DNA from: Bilabrum cf. latius | Lineage: Eukaryota | Assembly (NCBI GenBank): GCA_965178125.1 | Contig: OZ237749.1 | Coordinates: 248,001-312,000, forward strand | Reading direction: 5' to 3' | Length of the DNA: 64,000 nt | In this document: positions 24,161 through 64,000 of the stretch, piece after piece | Layout of the letters: every line of letters begins with the position of its first letter | Numbering within the stretch: the first letter of the stretch is position 1 | The notes under the pieces: model-generated | Seen by the model: only the letters and a program-made list of their open reading frames with translations | The model's database searches: none | Told to the model about the DNA's origin: nothing | Made by a program: the position numbers and the translations under genes

Positions 24161-24350
24161 AATACGGAGCATGTAGCAGAAATAACTTGAAGCCCATTAA
24201 CAGGAATCCCACCAGTGGAGTCTGATGGACTGTATGCACCATGACCTGAAGAGGCTCCGCCGCAGCAGCACCGTATTGTGTGCAAGTGTGGTGCCGCACC
24301 ACCTAGTGCCACGCAGTGTTTGAAGTGCGACCATCTCAACAGGACTGAAG

Positions 24351-45426: not shown

Positions 45427-46080
45427 CCTGTTTGATTCAGGCTAGTCTGAAAGGGGGCATGGCTGTAGTACTTTCACTGGCACCAAGAAGTCTAGGCCAG
45501 ACCTGAACACCTGAATATACACGCATCGTTATCCTTTGGCAAAGCACACGCAACAAGGAGTAGTGGCCCAGCCCCAGGCCTATGCAATTTGGGGACACAA
45601 TTGGTGTCCCCAAATCCCCAAACAAGTCTTTTCGAAAACACTTATTTGGGGTTTATTTGGGGACGGCCTGATTTGGCAGGAAACACTTATTTGGGGATTA
45701 TTTGGGGACAACCCAGGGATGCCTCACTCGCCGATCCGATCGGCGATCGACAGCGGAGGGGGCAGCGGTTAGGGTGGAGCTTCTTGCTGTGAGTAACTCA
45801 GTGCGCGACGTCCGTGCGTGTGTCGAAGCAGCCAAGTATGGGCTACCCAGGCGCGACCGCTGACCTGCCAACCAGCAGGGTACAAAAAAAGAAAAACCTC
45901 GGGTGGGGTCTCTACCCTAGGGCTGCCGATCTAGAATCGCTGGCGCTGTCAGCTACGCAAATCACATTTGGATGTTTAGTGGACAAATTATTGTTTAATT
46001 ACACAAACAATTTCGCAGGAGAAGGCAACCAGAACCAGGGCCAGGCCATGCCACCAGGAGGGCCGACACTATCCCATACA

Positions 46081-47922
46081 ACACACATGAGGATGCAACC
46101 AATATTTCGATCCCATCATCACCATGCATACGTCCAGTGCACACACTGAGCGCCCTCCTGTCTCTTGTCTGCAAGCAAGGGTCGTGCACGGCCGGTGCTT
46201 GGCCTGTCGATCAGCTCACCTGCATCTCGACCTGCAGCGGCCCACCCAACACACATGAGGACGCAACCAATATTTCGATCCCATCATCACCATGCATACG
46301 TCCAGTGCACACACTGAGCGCCCTCCTGTCTCTTGTCTGCAAGCAGGGGTCGTGCACGGCCGGTGCTTGGCCTGTCGATCAGCTCACCTGCATCTCGACC
46401 TGCAGCGGCCCATACAACACACATGAGGATGCAACCAATATTTCGATCCCATCATCACCATGCATACGTCCAGTGCACACACTGAGCACCCTCCTGTCTC
46501 TTGTCTGCAAGCAAGGGTCGTGCACGGCCGGTGCTTGGCCTGTCGATCAGCTCACCTGCATCTCGACCTGCAGCGGCCCACCCAACACACATGAGGATGC
46601 AACCAATATTTCGATCCCATCATCACCATGCATACGTCCAGTGCACACACTGAGCGCCCTCCTGTCTCTTGTCTGCAAGCAAGGGTCGTGCACGGCCGGT
46701 GCTTGGCCTGTCGATCAGCTCACCTGCATCTCGACCTGCAGCGGCCCACCCAACACACATGAGGATGCAACCAATATTTCGATCCCATCATCACCATGCA
46801 TACGTCCAGTGCACACACTGAGCGCCCTCCTGTCTCTTGTCTGCAAGCAGGGGTCGTGCACGGCCGGTGCTTGGCCTGTCGATCAGCTCACCTGCATCTC
46901 GACCTGCAGCGGCCCACCCAACACACATGAGGACGCAACCAATATTTCGATCCCATCATCACCATGCATACGTCCAGTGCACACACTGAGCGCCCTCCTG
47001 TCTCTTGTCTGCAAGCAAGGGTCGTGCACGGCCGGTGCTTGGCCTGTCGATCAGCTCACCTGCATCTCGACCTGCAGCGGCCCACCCAACACACATGAGG
47101 ATGCAACCAATATTTCGATCCCATCATCACCATGCATACGTCCAGTTCACACACTGAGCGCCCTCCTGTCTCTTGTCTGCAAGCAGGGGTCGTGCACGGC
47201 CGGTGCTTGGCCTGTCGATCAGCTCACCTGCATCTCGACCTGCAGCGGCCCACCCAACACACATGAGGACGCAACCAATATTTCGATCCCATCATCACCA
47301 TGCATACGTCCAGTGCACACACTGAGCGCCCTCCTGTCTCTTGTCTGCAAGCAGGGGTCGTGCACGGCCGGTGCTTGGCCTGTCGATCAGCTCACCTGCA
47401 TCTCGACCTGCAGCGGCCCACCCAACACACATGAGGACGCAACCAATATTTCGATCCCATCATCACCATGCATACGTCCAGTGCACACACTGAGCGCCCC
47501 CCTGTCTCTTGTCTGCAAGCAGGGGTCGTGCACGGCCGGTGCTTGGCCTGTCGATCAGCTCACCTGCTGACACCTGCATCTCGACCTGCAGCGGCCCACC
47601 CAACACACATGAGGACGCAACCAATATTTCGATCCCATCATCACCATGCATACGTCCAGTGCACACACTGAGCACCCTCCTGTCTCTTGTCTGCAAGCAA
47701 GGGTCGTGCACGGCCGGTGCTTGGCCTGTCGATCAGCTCACCTGCTGACACCTGCATCTCGACCTGCAGCGGCCCACCCAACACACATGAGGATGCAACC
47801 AATATTTCGATCCCATCATCACCATGCATACGTCCAGTGCACACACTGAGCGCCCTCCTGTCTCTTGTCTGCAAGCAGGGGTCGTGCACGGCCGGTGCTT
47901 GGCATGTCGATCAGCTCACCTG
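46081..47922. repeat. 168-bp tandem satellite (~11 copies; copies 9 and 10 are 178 bp) inside the hAT element
   Basis: Unit starts ACACACATGAGGA at 46081 + n*168 up to 47425, then 47603 and 47781 (10-bp CTGCTGACAC insertion). Confidence 0.95.
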
Positions 47923-48169: not shown

Positions 48170-51106
48170 TTAGCGGCCAGCCCCACTACTTGCTGCAGCA
48201 GGCATCTATCCTTTTTCTGCCATGCCATCTTCTTTCTCTCCCTCAATCGATGGATCTTCGCCGCGTGAAGACTGGGGTCCAGGCAATGCATCACCCATGG
48301 CGATCCTTGCGCGAACCTCCTCCAGATTGCGCACAGCCTGGAAAGTTGCCTTCTCAACGTACCGGCCCATGAACTGACAGACTGCACTGTGGACGAAAGT
48401 GTGAGCACACGACGCCCAGCGTTCTTTCTGCCTGGCGCGCTTGCTGCAGTAGGAGAAGAATCGTTCAGTCGAAGCCTGAGACATCGCCATGGCCTTCAGG
48501 TAAGAAGCCAACTTTGACAGTAATGGGCAATGCCGGATCACAGATGCATCTGATGTCCAAAACTTCATGGAGCTCCAGTTCTTCTTCATGGTGGCGGTCT
48601 CCAACTGAACAAGTTGCGAGTCCGTCTACCTGCAGAATGCTGCCCACTCATTGTCCAAATCCCCACGCTAGAAGAGGTCACTCAAGTCTCGCCCAACTGC
48701 TTCTTTTGCAGCATTAAAGATGCTACTCGTATCACGCAGCTTTTGCAGCCTTAGCTCTTTGCTCGCATTGATGTCAAGCAGCAGGATGACCTTGGCAACG
48801 CGCAGCATACCTTCGAGATGCTCGTCCATCTTCTTCCCTGCAGCCTTCGCTGGCCCCACATAAGACTTGATGAGAAGCTACTCTAGCTCATCCTCCGTGT
48901 AGTTGCACCTGAACCACCAATGATCAGGATCGTGGCATGCCTTAATGGCCCTGACAGCGGCCTTGGCATCGTCCACGAGGCGTGGCGGAGCAGATGCTTC
49001 AGCACCTCCAGCGGCAGCGCCAGCAGCGGCCTACTGCGCACCCACCCCTTCAGCAGCTGCGCGTGCAGCAGCTGCAGCCAGGCGTTGTTGGTGTGAAGGT
49101 CCCGGCCCCGTTGCCTGAACTGCAGCGGCACCCACACCTGCACCAGCAGCTTTTGCATCACCATCACCTGGACCCTCTGGGTACCTGAACCGAGCAGTCT
49201 CAACCAACTAAACAAAGTCGCGAAGCGTGTCCATGCTCTGAACGCCATCCTTCTACATCTTTACGATCATGTCCGAGAGCTTGCTCAGCACGTCCGAGAC
49301 TAGCGCTGTTCGGGCAGCAACCTAGACGACATCCAATACGTCCCCCACCGTGTACTCAGTAAGAGTCGTCCCACGGATAACTCTTCCCTTTCGGCGAGGG
49401 ACACAAGATATGACTTTCTTGGCACAATTGATGAATGTACACTTCTTGTTTTTGCTGAAAGCCTCGAATTGCGTCAGGAGCGATCCCGTGAATCCCAAGC
49501 TAGCGAGTGGTTTCGCTGCATCCGCTTTGCTGCACCACCTCGTCTCAACCGCTTTCGTAACCGCCATACCATCCTTTTTAGGCATGCCTGCTAGTTCAGC
49601 AGCTCTGGACACTGCAGTCTCGATAATCGCACGACTGCCAAAGGCTCGCGACCATGCAGTGCTGAAAGCGCTGACCAGGCCGGCCAACGATGACTTGGGG
49701 CCCGTCCGAGTGGAAGTGAATTCCACGTCCAGGTACACACCTTCAACCAAATTCAAACTATGGGGTATACAGTGCCCAACAAAAGGTGCAGGAAGGCTTT
49801 TGCCGGCTGCCTTCTGTTCGATAAGGAGGTTGCTGCAGAAGGTCCGGTTCGCCAGCTGAGCATACGCTGCGTTGTCAGACGTGACGCAAGCAACATACTT
49901 CTTATCAATACCGGTCACCTTGCAAAAGTGGTCCAAGACTTGCCCAAGTTGCTCGGCAAGAGACTCTCCAGAGTGTGAATCGCTGCTGCAATCGACACCA
50001 ATCACTAGTACCCCTTTCGGCGACAGGCGAAGATCGGCGAACTTGGCCACAAACACCGTGATCTTGCCCACATAATACTGGGACTCATCATGCATGATGG
50101 AGACAAATGGATGCAGGGTGACGTCATGACCCTTCAGCTCGATGCATGTCTGCTTGACACCGCGAAGCACTTCGTCGATCAGGTCGTTGGTACTTTGCTT
50201 GGACCTGCTCACCTGGCTTTGGGCAATCGGATTCGGGGCCAAGACCTACAATGCGTCACGGTGCACATGCGAAGTTACAAAGCTTATCTAACTCTACGAG
50301 AAACCTTGAGACATCATCAACGAAATGTAGTGGGCGCGACCCTGCACGCTCAGCTGCCGCGCTCTCTCTTCGACGGGAATGGCGTCTGGGCTAAGACCAC
50401 CCTCCAGCATCTGTCGCGTGCGCATGGCTGCTTTCTACTCTACATGATGGGATGACAATTGTCTCGCGAAGGCATGCCTGGATGCTTCTTTTGCAATAGC
50501 ATCACTTTTGCGACGAGTCAGGGTGCGCGGGATGTTGTCGGCAAAGTGCTTGCCAGCAGCGTCGTCGTCCCGTTGACCTTGTGCCTCGTCAACTTCGAGC
50601 TTCGGGTTCTTCTTCTTGAGTTTAGCCCATTTCCGCCTTCTTTTCATGGCATTTAGTCGAGCACCGTATGCGTGCCGTAGTGAAAACAAGCGTGCCTCAT
50701 ACGTTGATCCACTTGCAGCAATCCCTGAGTAGGGGTGGAGCTTCATGTGAGAGCGCACCGCGGCTGCATCGCGGACTGAGACGTCTTTCGCGCAGATCTA
50801 GCACGTCATTTCGCCGGTGGCCTTGAAACTATCCAGTGTAGTCTTGCCGAACGCCATCTCGATGACTGGATTCTCTTTCATCAGCTTTTGAAAGGCACCA
50901 CCGAAAAAAGATTCTCGCTAGGTAAGAGGGTTACGTTGGCGTGCAGGCTTCTTCGGTTTTTGTACTTTGGCAGCCTTGAAGGGACGAGGTGGTGAAGATG
51001 CACCGCCTTTCTGTACCACTGCTTGCTGTTCTCCCTCTCTCGGCCGCTTATCGCCCAACTGCTTAACGAAAGTGCATACAATCGATGGCTCTTTCATCTT
51101 GGACAT
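48170..51106 (-). CDS. hAT transposase (~978 aa), apparently intact
   Basis: Five track ORFs in one frame with only TAG interruptions; ends TAA 48170. Zn finger C*IC...H...H, SIMHDES, VTSDNAAY, CIPHSLNL, ETRWCS, and dimerisation domain PLLSKLASYL...SQASTERFFS. Confidence 0.9.
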
Positions 51107-51649
51107 ACGCTTTTTCTAGTAGGGCTATACTTTGGGCATTTGATACAGTTATGTGGCACCTCGAGGATCAAGTTTTAAAGTACACATTATGTATAAATAA
51201 CCCATATTTAATACAGATGTATTTGTAACGTACAGATATCCAGCTGTCCCCAAAAGCTTATTTGGGGATTATTTGGGGACGGTCCCCAAATTGCATAGGC
51301 CTGCCCAGCCCATTTGCCTGGAGCTTCAGGTGCTAGAACGCATCTGGGCGAAGGGAACGGCAAGGCTAGCACGCTCCCGGATCTGGAGCAGGCAACAAGT
51401 CCTAGAGGCGGACTATGTGGCGGTCTGGTGGCGAGAGGCTGAACGCCTCACGCCTCGCCAGGCCTTCCTTGCGCATGCTCCCTCACTGCGGACGTTCGAC
51501 TGGGTCTGACTCCCAGGAGATCTCAACGCGATGCGCTTAGGACACGGGTCCTAGGCATGTATCGGTCTTAACCAGACCAACTATTTCTTTAGAGGCCTTT
51601 TCAGGTCCTGACTGGCTCCGCCAACGCGGGTACAGCTGGGTCCCTTGTA

Positions 51650-52760
51650 TAGGTGCGCGTTACTTTGGTGGCAGTCCTCGGATTGTCTCTGGTATTGAAT
51701 TGCGTGCGAAAACTCTATTTCCTCTCTCTCTCTCGATCCTTTTTTTTGCGGAGCCCATGGCGTGAGCTTGCTGATCCGTTCGACCTGCCCAGTGCGATTG
51801 CCTCTTGGGGTGGTCGTTGTAGTTGGGTAGTGTGTGCTTTGACTCAGACATATTATATTCTCTCTCGATCCCGGCAGGAGCACAACCAGGTGGTGGATCT
51901 GGGAGTGCTTGGGAAGAGGCAGGCGGCCTTGACCCTGACCATGCTGGTCTCTTACATCCCCTAGCACTCGCAGTGGGAGCTCCAGATGTGCAGAACCTCC
52001 AAGGAGGAGCGGCACAGCTGACAGCTGCTGCAGCTTGAGCTGGTCAGTGAGATGTTTCCTCCCGGTCGAAGTAGCCTTCGGGTGACTTCTTAGCCTGGGT
52101 AGCGTGTAGTTTGAATCACATAAATTTATTCTCTCTCTCTCTTGCGATTATATTCTCTCTTGCGATTGCCTCTTGGGGTGGTCGTTGTAGTTGGGTAGTG
52201 TGTGCTTTGACTCAGACATATTATATTCTCTTGCCTCAGACATATTATATTCTCTCTTGCCTGCCCTAGATCTATGGGTAGATGGGGTGCTGAACGTGTC
52301 AGCGAGGCTGGTAAGTGCCAAGACGTGGGGGACCACTGGGAGTGTACCGCATGAGGCAGATACCGAAAAGGGTCTGGAAGCTCGGAGGCCGTCGGGACGA
52401 CACAGGCAGGCAGGGCCAGCCAAGTGTCGAGTGGCAGCAATGCGTGTTGCCCCCGCCATAGTCCGAGTGGAAGGGCGCCTGTAAGGTCTGTCCTTTCAAC
52501 ATGCATAATCGTGATAGCGTGCGCCTTTGAGTTCAAGTTGAATCACAAACTATTAGACCCCCCCCCCCCTCCCCCCCCCCCCCGCCTAGCCTAGATTACT
52601 ATGAGGGCTGGAGGGCTGCAGCGAAGACCAAACGGGCGCTCGTCAGCGCGGTCAGGGAGGGTTTTGCCAGCCTGGCTGTGGGGGCAGCCGAAAACAACAA
52701 CCTCGCCATGGCGGTCGCCATCGCCAAGGCAGGGTTGGACCAGAACGGGGCTTGTCGTTG
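51650..52760 (+). mobile_element. Cluster of head-to-tail retroelement 3'-end fragments
   Basis: A ~70-bp block is duplicated at 51793 and 52161. A 3' UTR homologous to the poly(C) element lies at 52511-52557, followed by a long C-run (52558-52583). An ORF-end fragment of the same family lies at ~52603-52750. Confidence 0.6.
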
Positions 52761-53596
52761 TACAAGGCCTCAATTTGTGCTAGATCTAGTCTCGACTTTC
52801 GAATTGAATCCAAGTCTTGCGCACATAGAGTCCAGCGCACTAGCTGGAGCGCCTGGCTCCCCTCTGGACGTATTGGCAGCTGTAGCGCGCCCCCCCCGCT
52901 ACGGTAATAAATAAATTTATTCCCTTCGGTTAAGGATGATTAACATCATCAATAGTTCCAGTCCATCAGAGCTAAAGCTCTTCAGTCCGTTCCACTCCTT
53001 TTGGAGCTAGTCGCTCCAAAAGTCAAGGTGAGCCTCTTCATACTGCTACTTCATATAACTGCTTTATCCTTCTAATTATATAAAATCAATTATATATAAA
53101 ACTCTATACGATGACCATATCCATAAATTGCGTATTAGTATATGTAAGTTCTAATCAAAACGTGGATGTAGCCCTCTTGTGAAGGTGTTATGGGACTCTA
53201 GCCATTTTCTAGCCAAAAGTTCCATCACTTTATGGGACTCCATTATTCAACCTTCTAAACTACCTTCATTATACCCCCTTATCCTCGCTTATACCTTCAC
53301 AAATGGAACAAACGCGCTACAGCAACTCGCTACACTCGTCATCGTCAAAATGAACCTGAACCTGAATATTGGAGTTCAGCATTTCTTAGGAAATATGAGG
53401 GTCTAACCAACAGGATTTAATATTAAATTGTAAGCCTTTATAAAGGGTGTATATGTTTTTAAGTATTAATCTATGCCTATACATCACATAACCCCCTTCA
53501 TAACCCTAGCCTATAGGCTAGGGATAACCCCCACATAACCCCCCCACCTCTAAGCGTTTTTTTAAAACTCAAAAATTATAACCTAGTATTATAGAT

Positions 53597-54367
53597 ATGA
53601 ACTTTAATAATTATGTCATTGAAAATCCCGTCCTTATGAAGCAGATTTATAAGGCTACAGACCATATTACGGATAATACACAGAAAATTTTAGAGACCAT
53701 TACTACGTATGTAGATTTAGGTGGTAAGTTTTCAAAACCTAAATTAATTAATAAAAATATAGTTAGTGATATTAAAGAGAAAAAAGCCGTGATAAAACCC
53801 AAGAAAGAAGAGAAACAGAAGATACAACACGATAATAACGACCAGCTTGAAATTAACCAAACATACATTCTAGATAAATTTAATGACTATAAACCACAGA
53901 ATAATAAAATTTATAATGATGTAGATGATTTACAACCGCCAGAATTAATTAGATAGACCGCAATAGATGAAAAATTAACCGGTATGGAGCCTGACAGTGA
54001 AAGTGAAATAAACAGCGTTAGTACCGAACAAGACTAGATAGAAGCAGAAACTGATGATGAAATGATACCTGAGGAAGAGAAAAAAATAATTGGAGACCTA
54101 GAAAGGCTAGAAGACGGAGACTATAGGTATAAAGTGTCCGTAAATGGAAATGATGTATTTTTTGGTGAAATTAATTTACCCGATGTAGAGGCTCTTAAGA
54201 AATAGTTTAGCCCTCGTAAATTACAAATTATGATTTGTAAAATTAAAAGAAATTTTAATATTAATAATAGCGATGATATAAACAGCCCTGAGTTTTGGAA
54301 TAGCCGTGTATATTTGACCCTTGATGTGAAGGCCGAACATCAGAAACTACAAGATATCTATAATTAA
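53597..54367 (+). CDS. Viral hypothetical protein (256 aa), acidic middle, C-terminal SPEFWNSRV motif
   Basis: Open ATG to TAA with three TAGs read as Gln. Confidence 0.72.
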
Positions 54368-54730
54368 AAGCCCCTACAACTTAATAAACGGGCTAGAATT
54401 TAATAAAATATTTTAATATAACCGCTATATTAAAATCTATACGATGGCTATATCCACAAATTGCGTATAATTATATAGTATTTCTAGCAAAATGTGGATG
54501 TAGGGCCTCTTGTGAAGGTGGTATGGGACCTTAAGATAATTTTAAAAAATAGTTCCATCACTTTAGAAGGTGTTAAAATACACCATTCATATCACAATCT
54601 ATTTTTTAGGGCTAAATGGCAAAAATCACCTTTTACCTTCATTAATTATTATAGCCCCTTTAAGCCCTCTATAATTAAATATGGCGTTTAAAATAGTTTA
54701 AAAATATATTTCTAATAATATATATAGAAA

Positions 54731-57508
54731 ATGAATAATAAAAACCTTGTTAGTTTCCCCATCAAGCACAATCAAAAAATACCCGATGTTAAAAGCTGGC
54801 GTTATCTCACCAAACCCGAGCCTAAACGATTTAATAATCAGAATATGGCTATTATCACCGGAGAAATTAATAATATAACCGTGTTTGATATTGATTCATA
54901 TAAATGGAGCGATAAGAAGGAGCATTTATTCATCAAGAAATTTTCAGATGACTTTGTGAAGCGGTTCAACACATTCACGGTTAAAACAGCGGGTGGAGGG
55001 TATCATTTATATTTTAAATATGATTAGAATATATTAACTACCACCAATAGAGATATTGACGTTGATATTCGTAATGATGGGGCTTATGTAGTGGCACCAC
55101 CAAGTGGCATAAATGGGTCAAAATACGAAGTTATTAATAATGTAGAAATAAAAAAATGTCCTAAGGAGCTTTATAAATTTTATGAAAAGTATATTATTAA
55201 ATCCTCTAAGAAATCCAACGTGAAAGGGGCGAGTAAAAGGATATCAAAAATTGATAATCAAGATGTGAATAACTGTATGATGAAATTCATTCTAAATGGT
55301 AAAGACTGGTCAATTATATTAAATAGATTAGATAAGAAATATTTAAATAATTATAGTGATTGGTATAAAGCAACCCTAGCGAGTAAATATTTAGGATTTA
55401 AGAAGGAGTGGTAGGAGTGGAGCAAGAAGGGCAATAAATACGACTACCACAAAAATAACAAGGTGTGGAACTCTATCCATTATTTTGATAAGTTAAAAAC
55501 CTTTAATTTAGTTAATTCAATAATTTAGAATGATAAAAGTTTAAAGGCATTTGTGAAGGATAAGTATATTTCAAAGTGTTATTATCGTCCTTATGACGAG
55601 AATATTAACGGGTATACAGAAATTAATAAACCTAAGTTAGATGATATAGAGAAGCCCGAACGCTTTTTTAAATATGAATATAATTATGTGGTAAAAAGTG
55701 ATACAGGAACAGGTAAAACAACAGCATTTAAGAAATACATTAAACAGGTTCAAACGCCGTTCTTATCCATTGTATCCCGTGTATGTTTAGGCACAGAGCA
55801 ATACGAGAGCTTTTTAAATGAAGATATTAAATGTGAGTTCTACCAGAATAAAGATTTTGATTTTGGATAGTCTCTTATTATTACGCCGGAAAGTATCCCC
55901 CAAATTGTGAATTATGATTTTTCTAAATACATCGTATTCTTGGATGAATTCAATAGCATTATAGAGCATATATTAAGTTCTACCACGATGAATAATAATA
56001 GGGTTCTTGTATTATTTATTATTTTAAAAATGATAAGGACGTGTAAATAGTTTATTGCTGTAGATGCTGACATATCCCAGATAGCGATGAAATTTTTAAA
56101 ATGTGCTGGAGTAGAATTTAGCTTTATTAAAAATAGTTATAAACATTTTAAGGATGTGAAAGTATATTTTGAAAAAGACCAATAGAAATTTTACGATAAA
56201 TTAAAAAGTGAAGATAAATTTATACTGGCGTGTGATAGCAAGAAGAACGCAGATACATTTTATAAAATGTTATGTAAAGATGGTATAGAGGACGTTAAAT
56301 TAATTACTAGTGATTTATTACCTGATGAGGATGTGAGCTTAGATAAATATGATAAAATTATATTTAGTCCTAAAGTCATTTACGGATTAGATAGTGTAAT
56401 GGAGCGCCCAGTGTATGGATTATATAAAGGAAAAACGATTCTACCGCCGTAGATGATGTAGCAACTGGCAAGATGTAGAAATCCCGAATATATGAATATA
56501 TATTTTGAAGATGTAAAATCCATTTATCCAAGATATGAGAATTTAAAGGAGGTATAGACGACCTTAAATATGGAAATTAACGCATAGACAGATTTATATA
56601 CTAAATTAGAAAAATACGAAAAAAGGATAATGTAGGAGAATGATATTGACATTGATATTTTTGAGGGAGAAGATGATGAAGAGATAGCCCATAAAGCAAT
56701 GATAGAGGCATCATATAAGGTTTATTTACCACTCAAGAAATTATATAATTTCAAATGTGATACATACGAAACAAATAAATATATTCATTTATAGCTTATT
56801 CTTAAAAACAGGGGCGCCGATGTATAGGTGGATAAAGAATTACCACAACGAATGAATAAATAGCAGATGAAAGAGGCGACAATGGAGATACTACAAGAAA
56901 AGATTGATTCATTTGATGTAGAGAACGACCATATAAAAAGAAGAATTGAAATTTTAGGGCTACCAGAGACAGCCATAACGGAGGATATTAAAATGTTATT
57001 AATTGATAATTACAAATTAATGAATTATTTTAATTATGCTAATTTCAAGAGAAAAGATAAATATAAACTAATGACAGAATTAAAGGATAGAAAGGATTTT
57101 AAGGATGAGAAAGCAAAAAGTACAAAGAATAAAATAATCATATTGTAGGAGATGTTATAGACGCTTAAATTGAATAAATTTGATTTAAGTTATACACGTA
57201 AAAATGAGAAATCCATTAAATATATAGAAATGGGTAAAAGATATGTAGAAGTAAGCGGGGCGAGATTATAGAAGCCAATAGAAACCGATAGTGAATTACA
57301 CGGGGCAATAGTAAAATTATATAAGTAGTTATTTGGAAATATTAAAACCTCTTGGAGTATGGGAAATAAAAAGGATAAAAAGGATAGAGAATTAAGAATT
57401 AAATTCACCAAGGAGAAAGAATTATTTGATGAAGTTTATAAATATTAGTATCCCGAAATGAAGGACGTATACAAGGAATCCAACGAACGATTAGATTAGA
57501 ATATTTAA
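54731..57508 (+). CDS. Viral Prim-Pol (AEP) + PriCT-2 + SF2 helicase (origin-binding-protein-like) fusion, 925 aa
   Basis: AIITGEINNITVFDID, TAGGGYHLYF, DIRNDGAYVVAPPS (Prim-Pol); YSDW...EW*EWSKKGNKYD (PriCT-2); KSDTGTGKTT, FLDEFNS, AVDAD, *MM*QLARCR (SF2 motifs). About 20 in-frame TAGs and no TAA/TGA until 57506. Confidence 0.9.
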
Positions 57509-57566
57509 TACCTTTTTTATGTGTTTAAAATAACTTAAACATTATATATTTATATAATATATAGTG

Positions 57567-57869
57567 ATGAGCGATATTTAGAGTTCAAGCAATACATAGG
57601 AACAACCAAAAATTAATTATATGTAGGAATATTACAAAACAAACAAAGACAAATGGAATAAAAAATATTTAGCTAGAGGAAATGAAAAAGTTAAATGCGA
57701 TGTGTGTGATTGTTATTATAGAAGGAAGGACAGAACGAGACACGAACGAACGAAGAAACACCAAAAAAATCTCAAAGAACCAAAAAAGGATATACTAGAG
57801 GAATATATCAAGAAACTTAATCAAACCCTGCTTAATAGCGGGATTAAACCACCGGAGATATCAATTTAA
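57567..57869 (+). CDS. Viral C2H2-type zinc-finger protein (100 aa), missing from the ORF track
   Basis: ATG 57567, three TAGs, CDVCDCYYRRKDRTRHERTKKH, TAA 57867. Confidence 0.78.
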
Positions 57870-57911
57870 ATTTATCTATTTATTTATTTTTTTTATAAAT
57901 AAAAAGATTTT

Positions 57912-58433
57912 TCAACCTTTAATAACCATCCAATTAGCCGACCAATCATTAGAGGAATTACCACCCGTTAAATGAATCGTAAATCCATCGGTTCCTGCTA
58001 CTACGTGGGAAAATTCAACCGGCTCACTGGCGGGGGTGATTGTAGTAATAAAAACCAAATCACTAGAAGTCATACCCGGAACACTAGCAAATTCAGTAGC
58101 ACCTCCACCACTCCAATTTACCCTTCCTTTATGCGCTACGGTGTTATTTGCTACTACTTCACCTTTTACGGTTAAATCACATTCGTGACCGTCTTCATCA
58201 AAACTCATAACTAAACCAGCAGATGCGGTATTGGCACCGAATCGTAAAGCTTGACCCGAAGTGATGTAAGAAATACCCTTACTGTCAAGATGTAATCCTG
58301 CGTTGCTAACAACTACATCACTACTATTCACAACAGCATTTACATATAGACCACTACTATCTAATCTACCAGTTGCGACATTCTTACATTGAATAGATAT
58401 ATCATTAGGTTGCGATAATCTTGCTAAGCTCAT
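57912..58433 (-). CDS. Viral hypothetical protein (173 aa), beta-rich, possible fibre/virion protein
   Basis: Clean ATG-TGA ORF; Gly/Ser/Val-rich composition unlike its Lys-rich neighbours. The function is a guess. Confidence 0.65.
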   Translation of the reverse strand: MSLARLSQPNDISIQCKNVATGRLDSSGLYVNAVVNSSDVVVSNAGLHLDSKGISYITSGQALRFGANTASAGLVMSFDEDGHECDLTVKGEVVANNTVAHKGRVNWSGGGATEFASVPGMTSSDLVFITTITPASEPVEFSHVVAGTDGFTIHLTGGNSSNDWSANWMVIKG

Positions 58434-58486
58434 TTTTTGTATATATAAATAAGAGAAAAACTAAAACTTATATCAAACCTATAATA

Positions 58487-59194
58487 TTAAACTTTCATTA
58501 ATTTTTTAGCTCTATCTACGGCGTCCATAAAGCTATCTTTTAATGTTGGTTCATTCCATAATACAAACCTAGACCAAAAAGCGGGGGATTTATAGTCTTT
58601 AAAGTCTTCATTTATTGAATGTCTTTTAATATAATTTTTCTTTTTACGGTTTGCTTCCTTCTCTCCATCTTTATTATAATATTGTATAAAGTCCATATAA
58701 GGGGTACCATCATTCTTAATTCCACCAAAATGAACAGTAAACAGAATATTATTACCTTGAACTACTTTAATCATATATTTTTTAATTGATTTAGTTGATT
58801 TATATAAATTAAAAACTGGTTTAGGTCTAAATGATTTCACGTGTCCGTTATTAAATTTTTCCTTCATTGCTTCCTCTATTTCTTCCGTGTCTAATTCTCC
58901 AAAGGTTAAAGGGGTCTCTTTATTTATTCTTTTAGTGGGTCTATATATATCTCCTTTTTCCTAATATCCCTTTTCTCCCTTCTAATTCTTCCAATCCTCT
59001 AATTTCCACCTTCTTAAATTTTTCTATGCTTCATTTAATTTAATTTTATCATATGTCCCCCCTAGTTGTTTATATTTTTTTAGATAGGCTAATGAACGAT
59101 AAGCTGATGGTTTTTTATACGTTCTATTTACTTCTTGGATTGCTTTTTTGTAAATTTTAGGATTATTAATATAATTAGGTATATTATCATTCAT
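58487..59194 (-). CDS. Viral two-domain protein (235 aa) resembling conserved giant-virus/phage hypothetical families (C-terminal domain DUF5754-like)
   Basis: ATG 59194 in frame with the track ORF via three TAGs. YKKPSAYRS...YKQLGGTY...LRRWKLEDWKN*KG...IYRPTKRINKETPLT, then KKY...VHFG...YMDF...YIKRH...SPAFWSRFVLW. Confidence 0.75.
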
Positions 59195-59202
59195 TTGTAT
59201 AA

Positions 59203-59361
59203 TTAATAAAATGATAATTTTTTAATAGCGTGAGCCGTTTTTTTTCTATATTCTTCATAGAGTCTTTTATTATTTGGATTCTTCATTAATTTATTTTTTA
59301 CCTTCTTTAATGCCTTCTTAATAGCATACTAAACAAAGATATTACTAATAATATTAATCAT
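59203..59361 (-). CDS. Small basic viral ORF (52 aa)
   Basis: ATG-TAA with one TAG; fills the gap between the polymerase and the next gene. Confidence 0.4.
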
Positions 59362-59388
59362 ATATTATATAATTAATAAATATTTAAT

Positions 59389-60888
59389 TCAAAGCATTAA
59401 ACCGCCTTTTTTTCCTTTCCTTGATATAATTTCTTCTTTTTCATTTACGACCATTAAATCATTCTATCCGTGGATAATTAATTTCTATCCTTTTTCATTT
59501 ATCTATTCTTTTTTATATTCACCTAATTCTTTACCTACTTTAAAATTTAATCTTTTGTTAAATGTGATACTGTCGGTGTGAATTCGTATAATATGTTTAG
59601 CGTTGTTCTTATTCACTTTCTTCATCAATCGTTGTCTTCCATATGCCAGAATAAAAGGTTTCAATTTTCCCCAGCTATATTTAAAGGGTACTTTATGTTT
59701 TAAATGATAAATAAATTCTCCGTCATTATCCATTTCTACACGGTCAATATCAAATTTATCTATATTTATTTTTTTATCATCTTTTGATGTAATTGTCTTT
59801 TTAGAGGAACTACATAATTTACCCCATAATGAATTTAATATTTCTTTTGCTAGATATGATTTGCTTTTTAATTTGTAGAACATTGAGACATAGGATTTAA
59901 AAAGTGTTTCACCTTTGATATATTTATCATAGGTCATAAAATTAAATTCGTCGCTTGACATCTCTATCTCACACCCATATTTAACAAACATATTCATATC
60001 AGTAAAGACATAATAAGTAAATTCATTTTCAAATACCTTCATCATTTGAAAGATATTCGGGTCGCATTTTCCACGGCTTACCTTACATTTATAAATCCCT
60101 ATTTCGTTTTTATTATTTATCTATTTATTATCAATTGTTTTATAAATAGGATTTCCATATGGTAGTAGTGAATTAGATGACATAATGGCGGGGTAATGAC
60201 TATTTATATCGTAGGTGATAAACTCCTCATATTGTCCCTTCTTGTGATATTGAATCCCGCCACGCGTTGAACCTTCAATAAATACCGCTTCCTCTGGGGT
60301 TATATCTGGTGGGCTATCTATCATCATATTAAACATTGTAAAGAAATGAAGGGCTGTTTGTCTGATTCCATATTTCATTACATCTAATGATGGGTTCTCG
60401 TCGTGTAATTCATCACTTGCTATACTCAGCCTTAAGCTCCATTCTTTGATATCTTCATCCTCTGGGCATTCGTGAATGGTGTAATGAAGATAATATTTCT
60501 TTGAATGATAATCGGTTAGGCTCTCAACTCTATATTTATCTTTTTCAATTATTTCGGCTTTATCGGTTAATTTAACAACCATAGATTTATGGCACCGCAC
60601 AAATAAAGGTTTCATCCTCTAGACGGCTTTAAATGAACCATCTTTATATTCTAAACAAACCCTTTTAAAACTCTTTTTTTTCCTACTTAGATAATAGACC
60701 TTTATATCGTCTTTCTCTCTAATCTCTATATCCATTTTTAAACCTGAAACAAGTTTATAAAGGTTCTTTGTAGTTATGGGCTTACCGTTAAATACCTTTT
60801 CTAGATACTTCACGGATTGAATGGGGTTATCATACTTTTTACCAAAGCATATATTTAATTGATTTAACACATTTTCGTAATTTATCAT
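59389..60888 (-). CDS. Family B DNA polymerase, protein-primed type, unusually short (499 aa)
   Basis: Three track ORFs in one frame via TAG; ends TGA 59389. STRGG, YDINSHYPAIM, KEILNSLWGK, KPFILAYGR, RIHTDS, ELGEYK. Confidence 0.88.
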
Positions 60889-60966
60889 TTCCTATAGTAT
60901 ATTATATTTAATATATTTTTAAGCCATTTTAAACACATATTATAAAGTTTAAATTATAAAATGTAA

Positions 60967-61311
60967 TTATTGTTTCGGAGCAGTGAGGATTAATATAAAT
61001 CTCTTCACTTGCTCATCACTTAAGAAGGTATAGCGAGAAGAAGGACTGAATAACATTACATCATCCTTTAATTTAAATGGTGAACCAGTTCGCCAGCCTA
61101 TGGGGTAGAGAGAACTAACATACGCATCATAATTTTTTAAATGGGGCTTTTGTTTTAATAACCTCTAGATATATTTTTTTAATAAAGTCTTCATTTCTAA
61201 ATCATTATATCCATCATCATTTCCACGAAGAGGAAACACAAAATTATATACGGGCTTATTGTTTTTAATAAGTTGAGTTCTAACAATTTGAATATCACTT
61301 AATTTAACCAT
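60967..61311 (-). CDS. Viral hypothetical protein (114 aa), missing from the ORF track
   Basis: ATG 61311 to TAA 60967 with one TAG; preceded by the element's CTTAAA...TATA upstream motif. Confidence 0.68.
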
Positions 61312-61403
61312 TTTTATATATATACTATAGATATTTTATTTTTAAGCCAAATACACGCGTTTAAAATGACTTAAAGATTTTATTTTATTATAATATATAT
61401 AGA

Positions 61404-61949
61404 ATGTCAAAATTTGAGAGTTATGAACCAAGCGAATTAATGGAACTTTTAGAAGAGGGAGCCGTAAAGAAAGCCAAGAAATATATTAATCAATTCTTCT
61501 TTAAAACTTTTAAAGGGATATTTTTTAATAATACCGTAGAAGATAAATTTGAACTAGTGGATGAAGACGAATTAAATGGTTTGTATCTAACCCCTGATAT
61601 GAAAACCGACAGTGCCAAAAATCCATTTGTTCCATACATTTATATGTTTTCTAGTGAGCCCCCGATTTATTATACAGGAAATTTTGAGAGTAAAGACCCC
61701 ATAATGACAATTAAAAAGAAGGACAAACCCATCAAATATATTAATTTGTCATACGGTCAATTTATACCCGAGGAAGTAGAGGAACCAGAAGAAGAAGAAG
61801 AACCAATAAGACCCAAGAAAAAGACTAAGAAGAGGAATAAGAAGAAACAAAAACGTGATAATAATAGAAATGTTGATAAACCAGATGATGAAGATGATGA
61901 TGAAGAAACCTTTAGAGACCAACTAAACGAGGCATTAAAAGATTTCTAA
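61404..61949 (+). CDS. Viral hypothetical protein (181 aa) with charged C-terminus
   Basis: Clean ATG-TAA ORF with the shared upstream motif and a downstream hairpin. Confidence 0.75.
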   Translation: MSKFESYEPSELMELLEEGAVKKAKKYINQFFFKTFKGIFFNNTVEDKFELVDEDELNGLYLTPDMKTDSAKNPFVPYIYMFSSEPPIYYTGNFESKDPIMTIKKKDKPIKYINLSYGQFIPEEVEEPEEEEEPIRPKKKTKKRNKKKQKRDNNRNVDKPDDEDDDEETFRDQLNEALKDF

Positions 61950-62271
61950 ATAATTTAATATTTATACTAATATTAAATATGATATCTTTATTAATAGTTG
62001 AACACCTTGACCATCTAATAAAAGGGCTAGAATATTAAAATATATATGGTTATCTCTATAATAAAATCCATACGATGGCTATATCCACAAATTGCGTATT
62101 AGTATATGTATTATTTAGCAAAACGTGGATGGATTAGTTTTATGAAGATGATTTGATTGATAACGTATTTCTAGCCCAAAAGTTCCTTCACTTTAGAAGG
62201 TTGTAATATAGCCCCTTCTGACTCCCATCATCAATATGTTAAATATTAATTTTATCATTAATATCTAATTA

Positions 62272-62823
62272 TTATTTACCAATATGACATTTATAACAAA
62301 TTGAATATTTCATATCTTTAATTCTAGACACTCCGCATTTTTTACACGCCTTTTTTCCATATTTTGTAATCGTATAACAAGACTTACAGGTTGTCCTCCA
62401 ATCACCTCTAGCCATTTTACAAAGACACACATCACATCTTTTTTCATTCCTCTTTTTTTCCTCTAACTTTTTCTATTTCTTTTCTAACTCAATATGTCTT
62501 ATTCCTTCACAGTGCTTATTATATCGGTCTCTTGCGACATCCTTTTTACATATTCCACACCACTAATATAAACATTTTTTACGAATTTGATTTTCTTTAT
62601 CCTTTATCATCTACTTTATACAACTAGAACCCACTTTAAAAACATATCCACTAGGGGTATGCTCTATTTCGTGCTCGGTTCGTATCTCGTGCCCACAAAT
62701 ACAATTACCCAATTTATCACCTTGAATAACGGTTGAGCCAATATGAATTAATTTCTTCTAAATGTCCACCCATTTTATATTACCGGTATGTTCCTATATT
62801 TGTTCAATACACTTTTTACACAT
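62272..62823 (-). CDS. Viral multi-zinc-finger protein (183 aa), missing from the ORF track
   Basis: ATG 62823 to TAA 62272 with five TAGs; CICGHEI...VGSSCIK, CGIC...H...H, CDVC, CKSC, CKKC, CYKC. Confidence 0.8.
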
Positions 62824-62835
62824 TCTCTATATAAT

Positions 62836-62900
62836 ATCTATATAATATAATCTTTAAGTCATTTTAAACGCGTTATATTATAAAAAAGGGGCTTAAAAAT
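62836..62900 (-). promoter_or_regulatory. Conserved viral upstream element, near-identical at 63580-63644, with variants before most viral ATGs
   Basis: Sense-strand pattern GCGTTTAAAATGACTTAAAGATT...TATATAG..ATG; related copies at ~54684, ~57522, ~60935 (minus) and ~61356. Confidence 0.7.
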
Positions 62901-62980
62901 AGACACTATAGAAATAGATGATTATATTAATTAATATTATTAAAATATTAATTAATTAGACCGGTTAAATAGTTCTTTGG

Positions 62981-63088
62981 AAAGTATGAACCTACTTTGA
63001 AAAGTATGAACCAACTTCGGAAAGTATGAACCTACTTTGAAAAGTGTGAACCAACTTCGGAAAGTATGAACCTACTTTGGAAAGTATC
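62981..63088. repeat. 20-bp tandem repeat (alternating A/B units, 5 copies plus partial) in viral intergenic DNA
   Basis: AAAGTATGAACCTACTTTGA / AAAGTATGAACCAACTTCGG at 62981 + n*20. Confidence 0.93.
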
Positions 63089-63138
63089 ATTCACAGGTCA
63101 TATATTTATTTAATATGTATAAATAAATAATAAAATGA

Positions 63139-63567
63139 TTATCTAGAGACATCTATTAAATATTTGTTGAAATACGTGCCCACTATTTTATTATACTACT
63201 TCAAATGATACAGATACAGCGTCTTAAATTTATTATTTGTTTGTTTTAGACTGTCAAAACAACCATTTATATAACTTAGATATCTACTGTTTTCATCTGT
63301 GTCTTTATCCAAAACACAATCAAGTAATCCCATAGTTGTTTTCACATTTTTATAAGCGTTTAGATAATTATCATAAAAGTCTAATAGGTCTTCTAGTTCA
63401 GTTATATGATAATCTTTAGATTCTTTCTTAGTGGAGAAAATAGTGCTTTCCGTTTTCTCACGCTTTATAAAAGCCTCAGTCATTTTTTCTTCTTTTTTAA
63501 AGGCAATTTTGATTTCTTTTGATACGAGTCTATAAAAATTGTTCATTGTATCATAATAATTATCCAT
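63139..63567 (-). CDS. Viral hypothetical protein (142 aa)
   Basis: Track ORF extended through TAG 63196 to TAA 63139. Confidence 0.7.
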
Positions 63568-63671
63568 TGTGTGTATAATATCTATATAATATAATCTTTA
63601 AGTCATTTTAAACGCGTTATATTATAAAAAAGGGGCTTAAAAATTAATTACTATACATATTATATATAAAT

Positions 63672-64000
63672 ATGGACAAATAGAGATTTTCATTGACCTT
63701 TGGCGATGCTGGAGAGAATCATATAGGTATGGAAATGTTAGGTGAAAGGCTCAAGGAGGGAGAAGGATTTAAAAATGAAGATTTGAAGGGGGTGATGGAG
63801 GTATGCGAGGAGAAAGGGTTTAAATGTGAAATGATAAATTTAGATGAAGATGTAGATGAAGATTTAGGGGCTAGGGTATTAATAGTAAGGGAATTTTATA
63901 AAAAGAAGAAAATTAAAAAAGTCTTTGACGAGTTGAAGGGGTTAGAGTGGGACAAAAAGTATTTTGATAGAAGGCGGGGGAGGGTGTTAAATAAAAATGC
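63672..64000 (+). CDS. N-terminal part of a giant-virus-type putative 2OG-Fe(II) oxygenase (AlkB-like), truncated by window edge
   Basis: MDK*RFSLTFGDAGENHIGMEMLG...LEWDKKYFDRRRGRVLNKNA resembles, from recall, the N-terminus of NCLDV proteins of this family; the catalytic motifs would lie beyond the window. Confidence 0.6.

What the first reader, a model, noticed from the sequence alone, without database searches (positions are those of the whole stretch)
52891..64000. Endogenous Polinton-like/virophage-like virus that has adopted the host's UAG=Gln code
Seen: an AT-rich intronless element sharply distinct from the host, in which ten of twelve ORFs need TAG read-through. The primase-helicase has ~20 in-frame TAGs, by my count more than its CAA+CAG, and TAG falls at motif positions (EW*EWS, *MM*QLARCR, WKN*KG). 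Inference: this is long-term adaptation to a recoded host rather than decay, since only TAG (never TAA/TGA) interrupts frames despite AT-richness. The virus would be genetically confined to UAG=Gln hosts and is largely invisible to standard gene calling; any helper giant virus would face the same code.
Basis: partly seen in the sequence, partly recalled or inferred. Interest (0 to 1): 0.95.

Follow-up and report, generated by a model that had tools for sequence, protein, structure and literature searches.

The report
Virophage-like insert using TAG=Gln code
An AT-rich, virus-derived insert related to virophages lies in a GC-rich protist genome and, like that genome, reads the stop codon TAG as an amino acid (glutamine), whereas its nearest known relatives still use TAG as a stop.

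Summary
At about 52,890 the GC fraction falls from 0.54 to about 0.30. Reading TAG as sense opens 12 ORFs, 10 of them with in-frame TAG. The 11 non-overlapping frames hold 42 TAG and no TAA or TGA. TAG means Gln: one TAG aligns to a Gln kept in 120 of 120 homologues, and Gln is enriched 5.1-fold at TAG columns. All ten long host ORFs checked also carry in-frame TAG.

The insert encodes an intact PrimPol-helicase and a protein-primed DNA polymerase. The polymerase's best viral fold match is mavirus (E 3e-31). On a tree the helicase sits in a clade (support 100) whose three long contigs all carry Sputnik-type capsid genes and use the standard code. Differences between copies are 21 synonymous to 3 non-synonymous, and contig depth is about 15 times that of the host flank.

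Not shown: capsid, ATPase, protease or integrase genes (the window ends inside the element), the junction itself, and Gln as the host's own meaning of TAG. Integrated viruses that follow a recoded host are already in print (Streblomastix, PMC10120064), so this is a new variant of a known kind.

The parts
52891..53596 (.). Left terminal non-coding region of the element. The boundary is good to about +/-20 nt. It holds copy 1 of a ~165-nt intergenic unit (53092-53255).
   Evidence: GC step and sequence. No ORF of 80 aa or more. A contig at host-level depth (27.6) ends at 52796, and summed depth rises from the 52507-53007 bin onward. Repeat families D2/D3/D6.
53597..54367 (+). ORF1, 256 aa, 3 TAG, no known family.
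   Evidence: Of 9 codon differences from the majority copy, 7 are synonymous.
54425..54588 (.). Copy 2 of the ~165-nt intergenic unit.
54684..54730 (+). Upstream motif (GCGTTTAAAAT..TTAAA, then TATAG just before the ATG) of the primase-helicase gene. The same motif lies in the same position, about 30-45 nt before the ATG, of ORF3, ORF6, ORF8, ORF9 and ORF10.
   Evidence: All 6 occurrences of GTTTAAAAT in the 64-kb window (both strands) lie there, each oriented toward its gene.
54731..57508 (+). PrimPol-helicase, 925 aa, 20 TAG. N-terminal Prim-Pol and PriCT_2 domains, then a helicase with a P-loop (GTGKT, aa 326-330), DE (405-406) and QQxxRxR (577-583).
   Evidence: Pfam PF09250 E 7e-16 and PF08707 E 3e-6. 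293 homologues, best at 49% identity. All 42 invariant columns kept. Some homologues carry ResIII/DEAD Pfam hits. The motif names are recalled.
57567..57869 (+). ORF3, 100 aa, 3 TAG, with C-x2-C-x12-H-x5-H spacing (zinc-finger-like, read from the sequence).
   Evidence: tblastn matches next to the polymerase gene in L042 and L025.
57912..58433 (-). ORF4, 173 aa, GC 0.40, no TAG, rich in Gly/Ser/Thr/Asn/Val. Function open.
   Evidence: Structure model poor, pLDDT 38.6. Atlas gives only weak leads to lectin or fibre-like viral proteins (0.90, recognition below threshold).
58487..59194 (-). ORF5, 235 aa, DUF5872 family, 3 TAG.
   Evidence: PF19197 E 7e-23. Relatives in 14 of 160 related loci. TAG sites align to Gln.
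59389..60888 (-). ORF6, 499 aa, 5 TAG. [quoted passage not shown]
   Evidence: Profile hit to phi29 polymerase, E 4.8e-8. 4 of 36 family members hit PF03175. Model pLDDT 85.8. Foldseek: phi29 polymerase E 7.7e-14; mavirus polymerase E 3.1e-31, TM 0.72.
60967..61311 (-). ORF7, 114 aa, 1 TAG. Matches the N-terminal part of the ~600-aa polymerase family and lies in the same frame as ORF6.
   Evidence: Weak blastp matches to the N-termini of 2 of the 13 homologues tried, P0133 and P0135 (E 3e-4, 4e-4). The family consensus YxxGWxxG is present.
61404..61949 (+). ORF8, 181 aa, no TAG, acidic/basic tail, no known family.
62056..62218 (.). Copy 3 of the ~165-nt intergenic unit.
62272..62823 (-). ORF9, 183 aa, 5 TAG, Cys-rich, no known family.
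62975..63087 (.). Tandem array, 5.7 copies of a 20-nt unit, between ORF9 and ORF10.
63139..63567 (-). ORF10, 142 aa, 1 TAG, no known family. Its 85-nt upstream region is 94% identical to that of ORF9.
63672..64000 (+). ORF11, at least 109 aa, 1 TAG, runs off the window. The element continues beyond 64000.

Best explanation
From about 52,891 to beyond 64,000 lies the replication half of a mavirus-like virophage (or closely allied polinton-like virus) genome. It sits next to repeated DNA of a GC-rich eukaryote that reads TAG as a sense codon.

Shown:
- Its genes are written in a code where TAG = Gln and TAA/TGA are stops.
- TAG supplies 42 of its 98 Gln codons.
- The proteins keep all invariant catalytic residues.
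- Copies differ mostly at synonymous sites.
- The nearest relatives are standard-code virophages that use TAG as a stop.

Inferred:
- An ancestor with the standard code became resident in a UAG-recoded host lineage. It lost TAG as a terminator, and under AT pressure it converted many CAA/CAG to TAG.
- The 20 TAGs in its helicase gene alone would now truncate the protein in any standard-code cell.
- Translation relies on the cell's UAG-reading tRNA. No tRNA gene is in the 11 kb seen.
- The shared upstream motif in front of 6 of 11 genes marks transcription by one dedicated machinery. By analogy with mavirus and EMALEs, this would be a helper giant virus, which would have to work in the same code.
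- Replication uses the PrimPol-helicase and the protein-primed polymerase.
- Capsid, packaging, protease and integrase genes are expected beyond the window end.
For: Code:
- 42 of 42 in-frame interruptions are TAG, P about 1e-27.
- TAG 577 aligns to Gln in 120/120 homologues and TAG 440 in 68/120.
- Gln is enriched 5.1x at TAG columns.
- Gln at TAG sites in relatives of two further genes.

Host: searches show 10 of 10 long ORFs with in-frame TAG. One is a hAT-like transposase with 16.

Identity:
- the best of the BFVD matches is the mavirus polymerase (E 3.1e-31, TM 0.72). The next match is at E 1e-19.
- window + L081 (protein identical to L082) + L083 form a clade with SH-aLRT 100, inside a 9-row clade with support 100.
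- L082, L001 and L002, the three members of that clade with 12 kb or more held, carry Sputnik-type MCP and penton genes. L082 also has a P-loop ATPase and an rve+chromodomain integrase.
- L001's record is 20.4 kb with inverted terminal repeats and is rated 100% complete.

Relatives' code. All 8 other clade members (9 loci) have the helicase ORF open (904-972 aa) under the standard code, and TAG ends ORFs in L082 (2 of 9), L001 (1 of 7) and L087 (2 of 6).

Selection: one search gives 21 synonymous to 3 non-synonymous codon differences. Searches show the invariant columns kept.

Copy number: the contig over the helicase has depth 564 against 37 for the host-flank contig in X1, and 381-436 against 29 in X2. 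Two studies hold the element.

Regulation.

Architecture: it matches the low-GC EMALEs of Cafeteria, with primase/helicase near one end plus pPolB, low GC in a high-GC host, and type-specific promoter motifs (PMC8547959, passages read).
Against: - None of the 11 ORFs in the window matches a capsid, penton, packaging ATPase, protease or integrase family. The virophage assignment rests on replication genes, which are known to be exchanged among virophages, polintons and PLVs (PMC8547959, passage).
- Only 11 of 160 loci with this helicase family have a Sputnik-type MCP.
- L042 and L025, the only loci that share the polymerase and the zinc-finger ORF with the window, show no such MCP.
- No listed contig bridges 52,890, and a 15-fold depth could equally be free viral DNA.
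- The polymerase is split into two ORFs.
- Gln as the host's meaning of TAG is not shown. Two host paralogues pair TAG with GAG, AAG, TGG and GAG, never CAG. In PDB alignments of a NudC-like host protein, TAG 205 aligns to Arg in two chains and TAG 215 to Thr in one.
Confidence: 0.75

Rival explanations
1. A polinton-like virus or Maverick-type self-synthesising element that is not a virophage. It would have a PLV-type or no capsid and no helper dependence, and it would have adopted TAG=Gln in the same way.
For: - 149 of 160 loci with this helicase family show no Sputnik-type MCP, though many are short.
- L042 and L025 share helicase, polymerase and zinc-finger ORF with the window. They have an rve+chromo integrase and an A32-like ATPase, but no detectable Sputnik-type MCP.
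- The window holds both a pPolB and a primase-helicase, as polintons and PLVs can.
Against: - The tree places the window in the clade whose three long members (L082, L001, L002) all have Sputnik-type MCP.
- The polymerase's best viral fold match is a virophage, mavirus.
- A shared upstream motif on most genes is the virophage/EMALE pattern.
Confidence: 0.15
2. The virus is real and recoded but not integrated here. Free or episomal viral DNA from the same culture was joined to host DNA by the assembler at a poly-C tract.
For: - The element contigs are about 15x deeper than the host flank.
- No listed contig bridges 52,890.
- The junction lies at a C8 run, next to high-copy host repeats (depth 603-3379 at 51,004-52,005).
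Against: - The window's copy differs from the majority contig at 21 of 2973 bases. It is therefore a distinct, lower-copy variant, as expected of one integrated copy.
- Host-level-depth contigs run to within 95 nt of the junction.
- Relatives carry rve integrases, and integration is the norm for mavirus-like elements.
Confidence: 0.12
3. A fragment of an integrated giant virus (GEVE) rather than a small virus.
For: - DUF5872 is a viral family.
- One of the 80 IMG/VR loci with the helicase lies in a giant-virus bin (L069, 26% identity).
- The element runs off the window, so its length is unknown.
Against: - There are no giant-virus hallmark genes among the 11 ORFs.
- Nearly all longer contigs with this helicase family are 15-28 kb, and the closest complete one is 20.4 kb with terminal repeats.
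- The best polymerase match is mavirus.
Confidence: 0.03
4. A decaying pseudogenised insert whose in-frame TAGs are nonsense mutations.
For: The polymerase gene is in two pieces, with 4 stops between them.
Against: - 42 of 42 interruptions are TAG (P about 1e-27).
- TAG sits at an invariant Gln.
- All invariant catalytic columns are intact.
- Codon differences are 21 synonymous to 3 non-synonymous.
- The spacer in the polymerase gene carries a copy of the upstream motif.
Confidence: 0.01

Closest known systems
Mavirus and the endogenous mavirus-like elements (EMALEs) of Cafeteria burkhardae (PMC8547959, abstract and passages read)
   Same: - A low-GC viral element in a high-GC protist genome.
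- Primase/helicase near one end, plus a mavirus-type protein-primed polymerase (fold match E 3.1e-31).
- Many copies.
- A type-specific motif in front of the genes.
   Different: - Written in TAG=Gln.
- The polymerase is split into 114-aa and 499-aa ORFs.
- The upstream motif is GTTTAAAAT..TTAAA, not TCTA.
- Capsid, protease, ATPase, integrase, terminal repeats and target-site duplication were not seen here, because the window ends.
- The host reads TAG as sense.
Uncultured virophages L082/L081, L001 and L002 (metagenome and IMG/VR contigs)
   Same: - The helicase is 45%, 37% and 36% identical and sits in the same clade with support 100.
- AT-rich (GC 0.30-0.32 for L081 and L082).
- L082 has a similar GTGTTTAAAAT motif about 45 nt before one gene.
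   Different: - They use the standard code, with TAG as a terminator.
- They carry Sputnik-type MCP and penton genes; L082 also carries an ATPase and an rve+chromo integrase.
- No match to the window's polymerase: only 2 of 160 loci match it, L042 and L025.
Integrated polinton-like viruses of Streblomastix strix that use the host's TAA/TAG=Gln table (PMC10120064, passage read)
   Same: An integrated small DNA virus of the polinton/virophage realm follows its host's reassigned stop codons. The authors read this as a long association.
   Different: - There both TAA and TAG are Gln. Here only TAG is, and TAA is the main terminator (8 of 10 ends).
- Those elements were found by a Metamonada-type MCP. 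Here the kinship is to virophages with Sputnik-type MCP.
Tlr/Maverick elements of Tetrahymena, written in the ciliate code (recalled; no call)
   Same: Polinton-type integrated elements whose ORFs need the host's TAA/TAG=Gln table.
   Different: The host group, code (both TAR) and gene set differ. Not examined here.
Code-15 (TAG=Gln) bacteriophages such as crAss-like phages (PMC9523058, abstract in the listing)
   Same: The same codon is reassigned to the same amino acid in a virus.
   Different: The phages' code differs from that of their bacterial hosts. Here virus and host agree, and no suppressor tRNA is seen in the 11 kb.

Membership tests
Virophages (mavirus/Sputnik kind) | Double jelly-roll major capsid protein of the Sputnik V20 / mavirus type | tested here: inconclusive
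   None of the 11 ORFs hits PF21915, PF22031 or any capsid family. The element runs off the window at 64,000. In relatives L082 and L001 the MCP lies 5-8 kb from the helicase gene.
Virophages (mavirus/Sputnik kind) | Penton (minor capsid) protein, FtsK/A32-type packaging ATPase, Ulp1-like cysteine protease | tested here: inconclusive
   No hit among the 11 ORFs. The rest of the element is unavailable: no whole genome is held.
Virophages (mavirus/Sputnik kind) | Replication depends on a co-infecting giant virus | not testable with these tools
   The only hint is a shared upstream motif on 6 of 11 genes, the pattern described for mavirus and EMALEs.
Virophages (mavirus/Sputnik kind) | Replication genes nested among those of virophages (supporting, not defining) | tested here: met
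   The helicase clade has SH-aLRT 100 with MCP-bearing L082, L001 and L002. The best viral fold match of the polymerase is mavirus.
Polinton/Maverick elements | [quoted passage not shown] | tested here: met
   The invariant columns that hold the polymerase's conserved acidic and lysine residues are kept (D227, K348, D439). The gene is split in two ORFs.
Polinton/Maverick elements | Retroviral-type (rve) integrase, terminal inverted repeats, 5-6 bp target-site duplication | tested here: inconclusive
   No rve hit in the window part. Only one end is in the window, so repeats and duplication cannot be read.
Nuclear code with TAG=Gln only (NCBI table 15 pattern) | In-frame TAG at positions where homologues have Gln | tested here: met
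   For the element.
Nuclear code with TAG=Gln only (NCBI table 15 pattern) | TAA and TGA remain terminators | tested here: met
   Element: 0 in-frame TAA or TGA in 11 ORFs, with ends TAA x8 and TGA x2. Host: ends TGA x8 and TAA x2 in ten ORFs.
Nuclear code with TAG=Gln only (NCBI table 15 pattern) | The host's own genes read TAG as Gln (not just as some sense codon) | tested here: inconclusive
   Sense use is clear: 10 of 10 ORFs. Its meaning is not. The paralogue comparison was uninformative. The TAGs lie outside the aligned parts of the amine oxidase. The homologue search returned nothing. PDB alignments give Arg and Thr at two sites.
Nuclear code with TAG=Gln only (NCBI table 15 pattern) | tRNA-Gln with anticodon CUA; altered eRF1 | not testable with these tools
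   No tRNA gene is in the 64-kb window, and no whole genome is held.
   At least 11.1 kb is present with two replication enzymes of virophage kinship. The absence of capsid genes cannot be judged before the right end is read.

The most novel reading that the evidence does not exclude
This is one member of an active, multi-copy virophage lineage that has co-evolved with a UAG=Gln protist. It is reactivated by a giant virus that must itself be written in, or tolerate, the same code. That would be the first host / giant virus / virophage system running on a non-standard genetic code, with the code acting as a barrier that confines both viruses to this host lineage.
Probability: 0.3. Interest if true: 0.85.

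Novelty: new variant of a known kind. Interest (0 to 1): 0.62.

Why it matters
Endogenous virophages and polinton-like viruses are known, and one paper already notes such elements using a recoded host's table (TAA/TAG=Gln in Streblomastix; PMC10120064). Three things are new here.

First, the element has virophage kinship and uses a TAG-only reassignment.

Second, its closest relatives are standard-code virophages that still terminate on TAG. The recoding can therefore be polarised: a standard-code ancestor gave rise to a resident of a recoded host. It can also be measured: TAG now supplies 43% of Gln codons, against about 18% in the neighbouring host genes if the host's TAG is also Gln.

Third, if the element needs a helper, it predicts a giant virus adapted to UAG=Gln. 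A 2026 catalogue states that all confirmed giant-virus isolates come from standard-code hosts and offers only metagenomic candidates for alternative codes (PMC13524828, passages read). This locus names a host lineage in which to look.

It also gives a clean natural test of whether a changed code isolates mobile elements. My searches for a virophage with reassigned stops found only an ochre-suppressor tRNA in one virophage clade (PMC6905037) and the Streblomastix case. Supplements of these papers were not seen and could hold more.

Tried and rejected
- No whole genome is held, so the element beyond 64,000 could not be read.
- Single-protein scans of IMG/VR for the helicase and the polymerase found no relative. 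Alignment queries were needed.
- PF04451 (NCLDV capsid) rang in 0 of 4 related records and in 0 of 14 controls, so it was uninformative.
- tRNA scan: 0 genes. Rfam: 0 at gathering threshold, and one chance-level match at E 0.8.
- The exact upstream-motif pattern has no match in IMG/VR.
- No RNA holder is listed among the sequencing runs.
- In runs X1 and X2 no contig covers about 58,018-59,020, and no listed contig bridges 52,890. The tool warns that holes prove nothing.
- A joint 53357/63033 on opposite strands (depth 77 and 57) and several short-sided joints were not interpretable.
- Host meaning of TAG was not resolved:
  - The paralogue pair 24324-25637 / 43235-44560 gives TAG paired with GAG, AAG, TGG, TAG and GAG.
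  - The amine-oxidase TAGs fall outside the PDB-aligned segments.
  - The NudC-like fragment found no homologue at E 1e-5.
  - PDB alignments put Arg (two chains) and Thr (one chain) opposite two TAGs.
- ORF4: the single-sequence model is unusable (pLDDT 38.6), and the atlas leads are weak.
- L042's large ORFs show no similarity to L082's MCP or penton.
- ORFs in the host flank 51,229-52,804 have no family.
- The ~165-nt intergenic unit shows no convincing RNA structure. Only 2 of 49 predicted pairs have compensatory changes, with just three sequences.
- Earlier findings of this scan: nothing by place, sequence or words.

Full report
**What is there**

The window is GC 0.48-0.65 per kb up to 53,000 and 0.245-0.338 from 53,001 to the end. 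The change happens within a few tens of bases around 52,890-52,905, just after a C8 run.

Under the standard code the AT-rich part has only short frames: ten frames of 100 codons or more, the longest 205. With TAG read as sense the same DNA gives frames of 929 and 509 codons. Reading TAA or TGA as sense does not, and 200 shuffles never exceed 206 codons.

Eleven are non-overlapping and cover 84% of the DNA after the first ATG. Inside these 11 frames there are 42 TAG, 0 TAA and 0 TGA. Ends are TAA x8 and TGA x2. TAG is 205 of the 901 stop trinucleotides on the + strand of the element, so 42 of 42 by chance is about 1e-27.

**What TAG means**

I aligned the 925-aa primase-helicase with 120 homologues (best 49% identity).
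- TAG 577 falls on a Gln present in 120 of 120 homologues.
- The next codon, a CAR Gln, falls on another invariant Gln.
- TAG 440 is Gln in 68 of 120.
- Over all 20 TAG columns, Gln is the most enriched residue (5.1x background; Arg 2.6x, from one column).
- In the three closest homologues, Gln stands at 5/19, 4/17 and 3/18 TAG sites. At CAR sites the figures are 4/13, 4/13 and 5/13.

In the DUF5872 ORF the three TAG sites align to Gln in 2/3, 3/3 and 2/3 sites of three relatives. In the polymerase, 2 of 5 align to Gln in a 63%-identical relative. TAG is therefore a Gln codon in this element, and it supplies 42 of its 98 Gln codons.

**The host**

The GC-rich part has long uninterrupted ORFs with eukaryotic domains: SRCR, flavin amine oxidase, TPR+UBA, DnaJ, CS/NudC-like and hAT dimerisation. 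All ten long ORFs examined carry in-frame TAG (2-21 each, 79 in all). They end in TGA (8) or TAA (2). A hAT-like transposase ORF has 16. The host therefore reads TAG as sense.

I could not show from host genes that it reads TAG as Gln. This step is inferred from the element, which has no tRNA gene in the part seen.

**What the element is**

- ORF2 has Prim-Pol and PriCT_2 domains, followed by a helicase whose 42 invariant alignment columns are all kept.
- ORF6 belongs to a family of ~600-aa proteins (897 hits). The family profile hits the phi29 polymerase (E 4.8e-8), and 4 of its 36 aligned members hit PF03175.
- The ORF6 model (pLDDT 85.8) matches phi29 polymerase in the PDB (E 7.7e-14). Among viral models it matches the mavirus polymerase far ahead of all others (E 3.1e-31, TM 0.72; next E 1e-19).
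- ORF7, just upstream and in the same frame, corresponds to the N-terminus of that family. The two are separated by 27 codons with four stops, and this spacer carries a copy of the upstream motif. I read it as a split gene.
- ORF5 is DUF5872, with relatives in 14 of 160 related loci.
- The other ORFs have no family.

**Relatives and their code**

Alignment-based scans found the helicase family on 80 IMG/VR and 80 metagenome loci; among the longer contigs most are 15-28 kb.

An iterated local profile finds a Sputnik-type MCP in 11 of the 160 loci, and these are concentrated among the closest relatives. Pfam confirms MCP (PF21915, PF22031) and penton (PF21507) in L001 and L082. L082 also has a P-loop ATPase, an rve+chromodomain integrase and a GIY-YIG gene. 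L001's record is 20.4 kb with inverted terminal repeats and is rated complete.

I built a quick maximum-likelihood tree of 71 rows (the 70 best-scoring distinct helicases plus the window, out of 137 distinct rows).
- It puts the window with L081 (protein identical to L082) and L083 at SH-aLRT 100.
- That group sits inside a 9-row clade at 100.
- The only members of that clade with 12 kb or more held (L082, L001, L002) all have the MCP.

All eight other clade members (nine loci, counting L082) have the helicase ORF open under the standard code. TAG ends ORFs in L082, L001 and L087. Over all 160 loci, TAG ends 134 of 1101 ORFs. The window's element is thus a TAG-recoded offshoot of a standard-code virophage clade.

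**Alive or decaying**

Contigs of public runs from two studies hold the element.
- In run X1 a 2976-nt contig over the helicase gene has depth 564, against 37 for a 3400-nt contig of the host flank.
- In X2 the figures are 381-436 against 29.
- This is about 15-fold, which means either about 15 genomic copies or free viral DNA.

The majority contig differs from the window at 21 of 2973 bases. One search showed 40 of its 189 difference rows. The 27 that fall in ORF1 and ORF2 make 24 codon differences, 21 synonymous and 3 not. Together with the intact catalytic columns, this indicates purifying selection between copies.

**Regulation**

The word GTTTAAAAT occurs six times in the 64-kb window on both strands. 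All six lie in the same position, about 30-45 nt before the ATG, of ORF2, 3, 6, 8, 9 and 10, oriented toward the gene. Each is followed by TTAAA and, just before the ATG, by TATAG. ORF7 and ORF11 have a related GGCTTAAAAAT box.

L082 has a similar motif before its GIY-YIG gene, whereas its capsid genes are preceded by TCTAGG. In mavirus and EMALEs such shared motifs match the promoters of the helper giant virus (PMC8547959). Transferring that reading here is inference.

**What is not shown**

- No capsid, packaging, protease or integrase gene lies in the 11.1 kb available.
- The right end, terminal repeats and target-site duplication are outside the window.
- No listed contig bridges the junction.
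- No RNA run is listed.
- Replication genes move between virophages, polintons and PLVs, so the capsid type remains a prediction (about 0.6-0.7).

**Comparison and novelty**

The nearest described system is the low-GC EMALE/mavirus kind. Integrated polinton-like viruses that use a host's TAA/TAG=Gln table are already reported for Streblomastix strix (PMC10120064). An ochre-suppressor tRNA in one virophage clade was read as a hint of recoded hosts (PMC6905037). A 2026 catalogue reports metagenomic giant viruses that annotate better under alternative codes, and says all isolates so far come from standard-code hosts (PMC13524828).

My literature searches found no virophage-type element with a TAG-only reassignment. 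Supplements were not available. I therefore rate this a new variant of a known kind. It is interesting mainly because the standard-code sister lineage polarises the change, and because it predicts a recoded helper giant virus.

Noticed in passing
window 48170-51148 (-): A 992-aa ORF with a weak hAT dimerisation-domain hit carries 16 in-frame TAG and ends in TAA. A host transposon is thus written in the same code.
   Followed up: partly
window 24324-25637 and 43235-44560 (+): Two host ORFs of about 440 aa are 94% identical at the DNA level over 1329 columns, a dispersed duplication 19 kb apart. They have no known family. Where one copy has TAG, the other has GAG, AAG, TGG, TAG or GAG.
   Followed up: partly
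window 45999-47570 (+): A 523-aa open frame made of about nine near-identical ~56-aa repeats, without any TAG. This is probably a tandem DNA repeat rather than a gene.
   Followed up: no
window 53092-53255, 54425-54588, 62056-62218: Three copies of a ~165-nt non-coding unit with strongly conserved blocks lie in intergenic DNA of the element. One copy is in the terminal region. They could be replication or binding sites, or a small RNA. No Rfam match and no covariation support.
   Followed up: partly
window 62975-63087: 5.7 tandem copies of a 20-nt unit lie between two divergent genes of the element.
   Followed up: no
window 51004-52005: The host flank next to the insert has summed contig depth 604-3379 in run X1, against 37 for the unique flank. 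The element therefore sits beside high-copy host repeats. Relatives carry chromodomain integrases, which in retroelements target heterochromatin (that link is recalled).
   Followed up: no
window 53357 / 63033: Contigs of runs X1 and X2 (depth 77 and 57) join these two places on opposite strands. This suggests an inverted or rearranged variant among the copies.
   Followed up: no
window 63115-64000: The right-hand part of the window's copy is matched by a contig with 0 differences at depth 92 in X1, against about 450-680 for the core. Copies seem to share a core and differ in their outer modules.
   Followed up: no
window 57912-58433 (-): ORF4 stands out in the element: GC 0.40 against about 0.30, no TAG, and a Gly/Ser/Thr/Asn-rich all-beta prediction. 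It is possibly a recently acquired fibre or lectin-like gene.
   Followed up: partly
proteins P0272, P0122 (public collection): P0272 is a 140-aa public translation 99% identical to ORF5, and it shows Gln at all three TAG sites. Either that copy has CAR there or it was called with a TAG=Gln table. P0122 is a 124-aa fragment 80% identical to ORF6 that begins at the first Met after a TAG site, as a standard-code call would. Recoded relatives are therefore already in public data, partly truncated.
   Followed up: partly
alignment A1 (polymerase family): The ~600-aa mavirus-type polymerase family has a nearly invariant N-x-C and a His in its N-terminal third (N12, C14 and H85 in ORF6 numbering). 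Its role was not examined.
   Followed up: no
L082 1-14918: In this standard-code virophage the capsid genes are preceded by TCTAGG, and two other genes by motifs like the window's (GTGTTTAAAAT, GGGCTTAAAG). This hints at two promoter classes.
   Followed up: no
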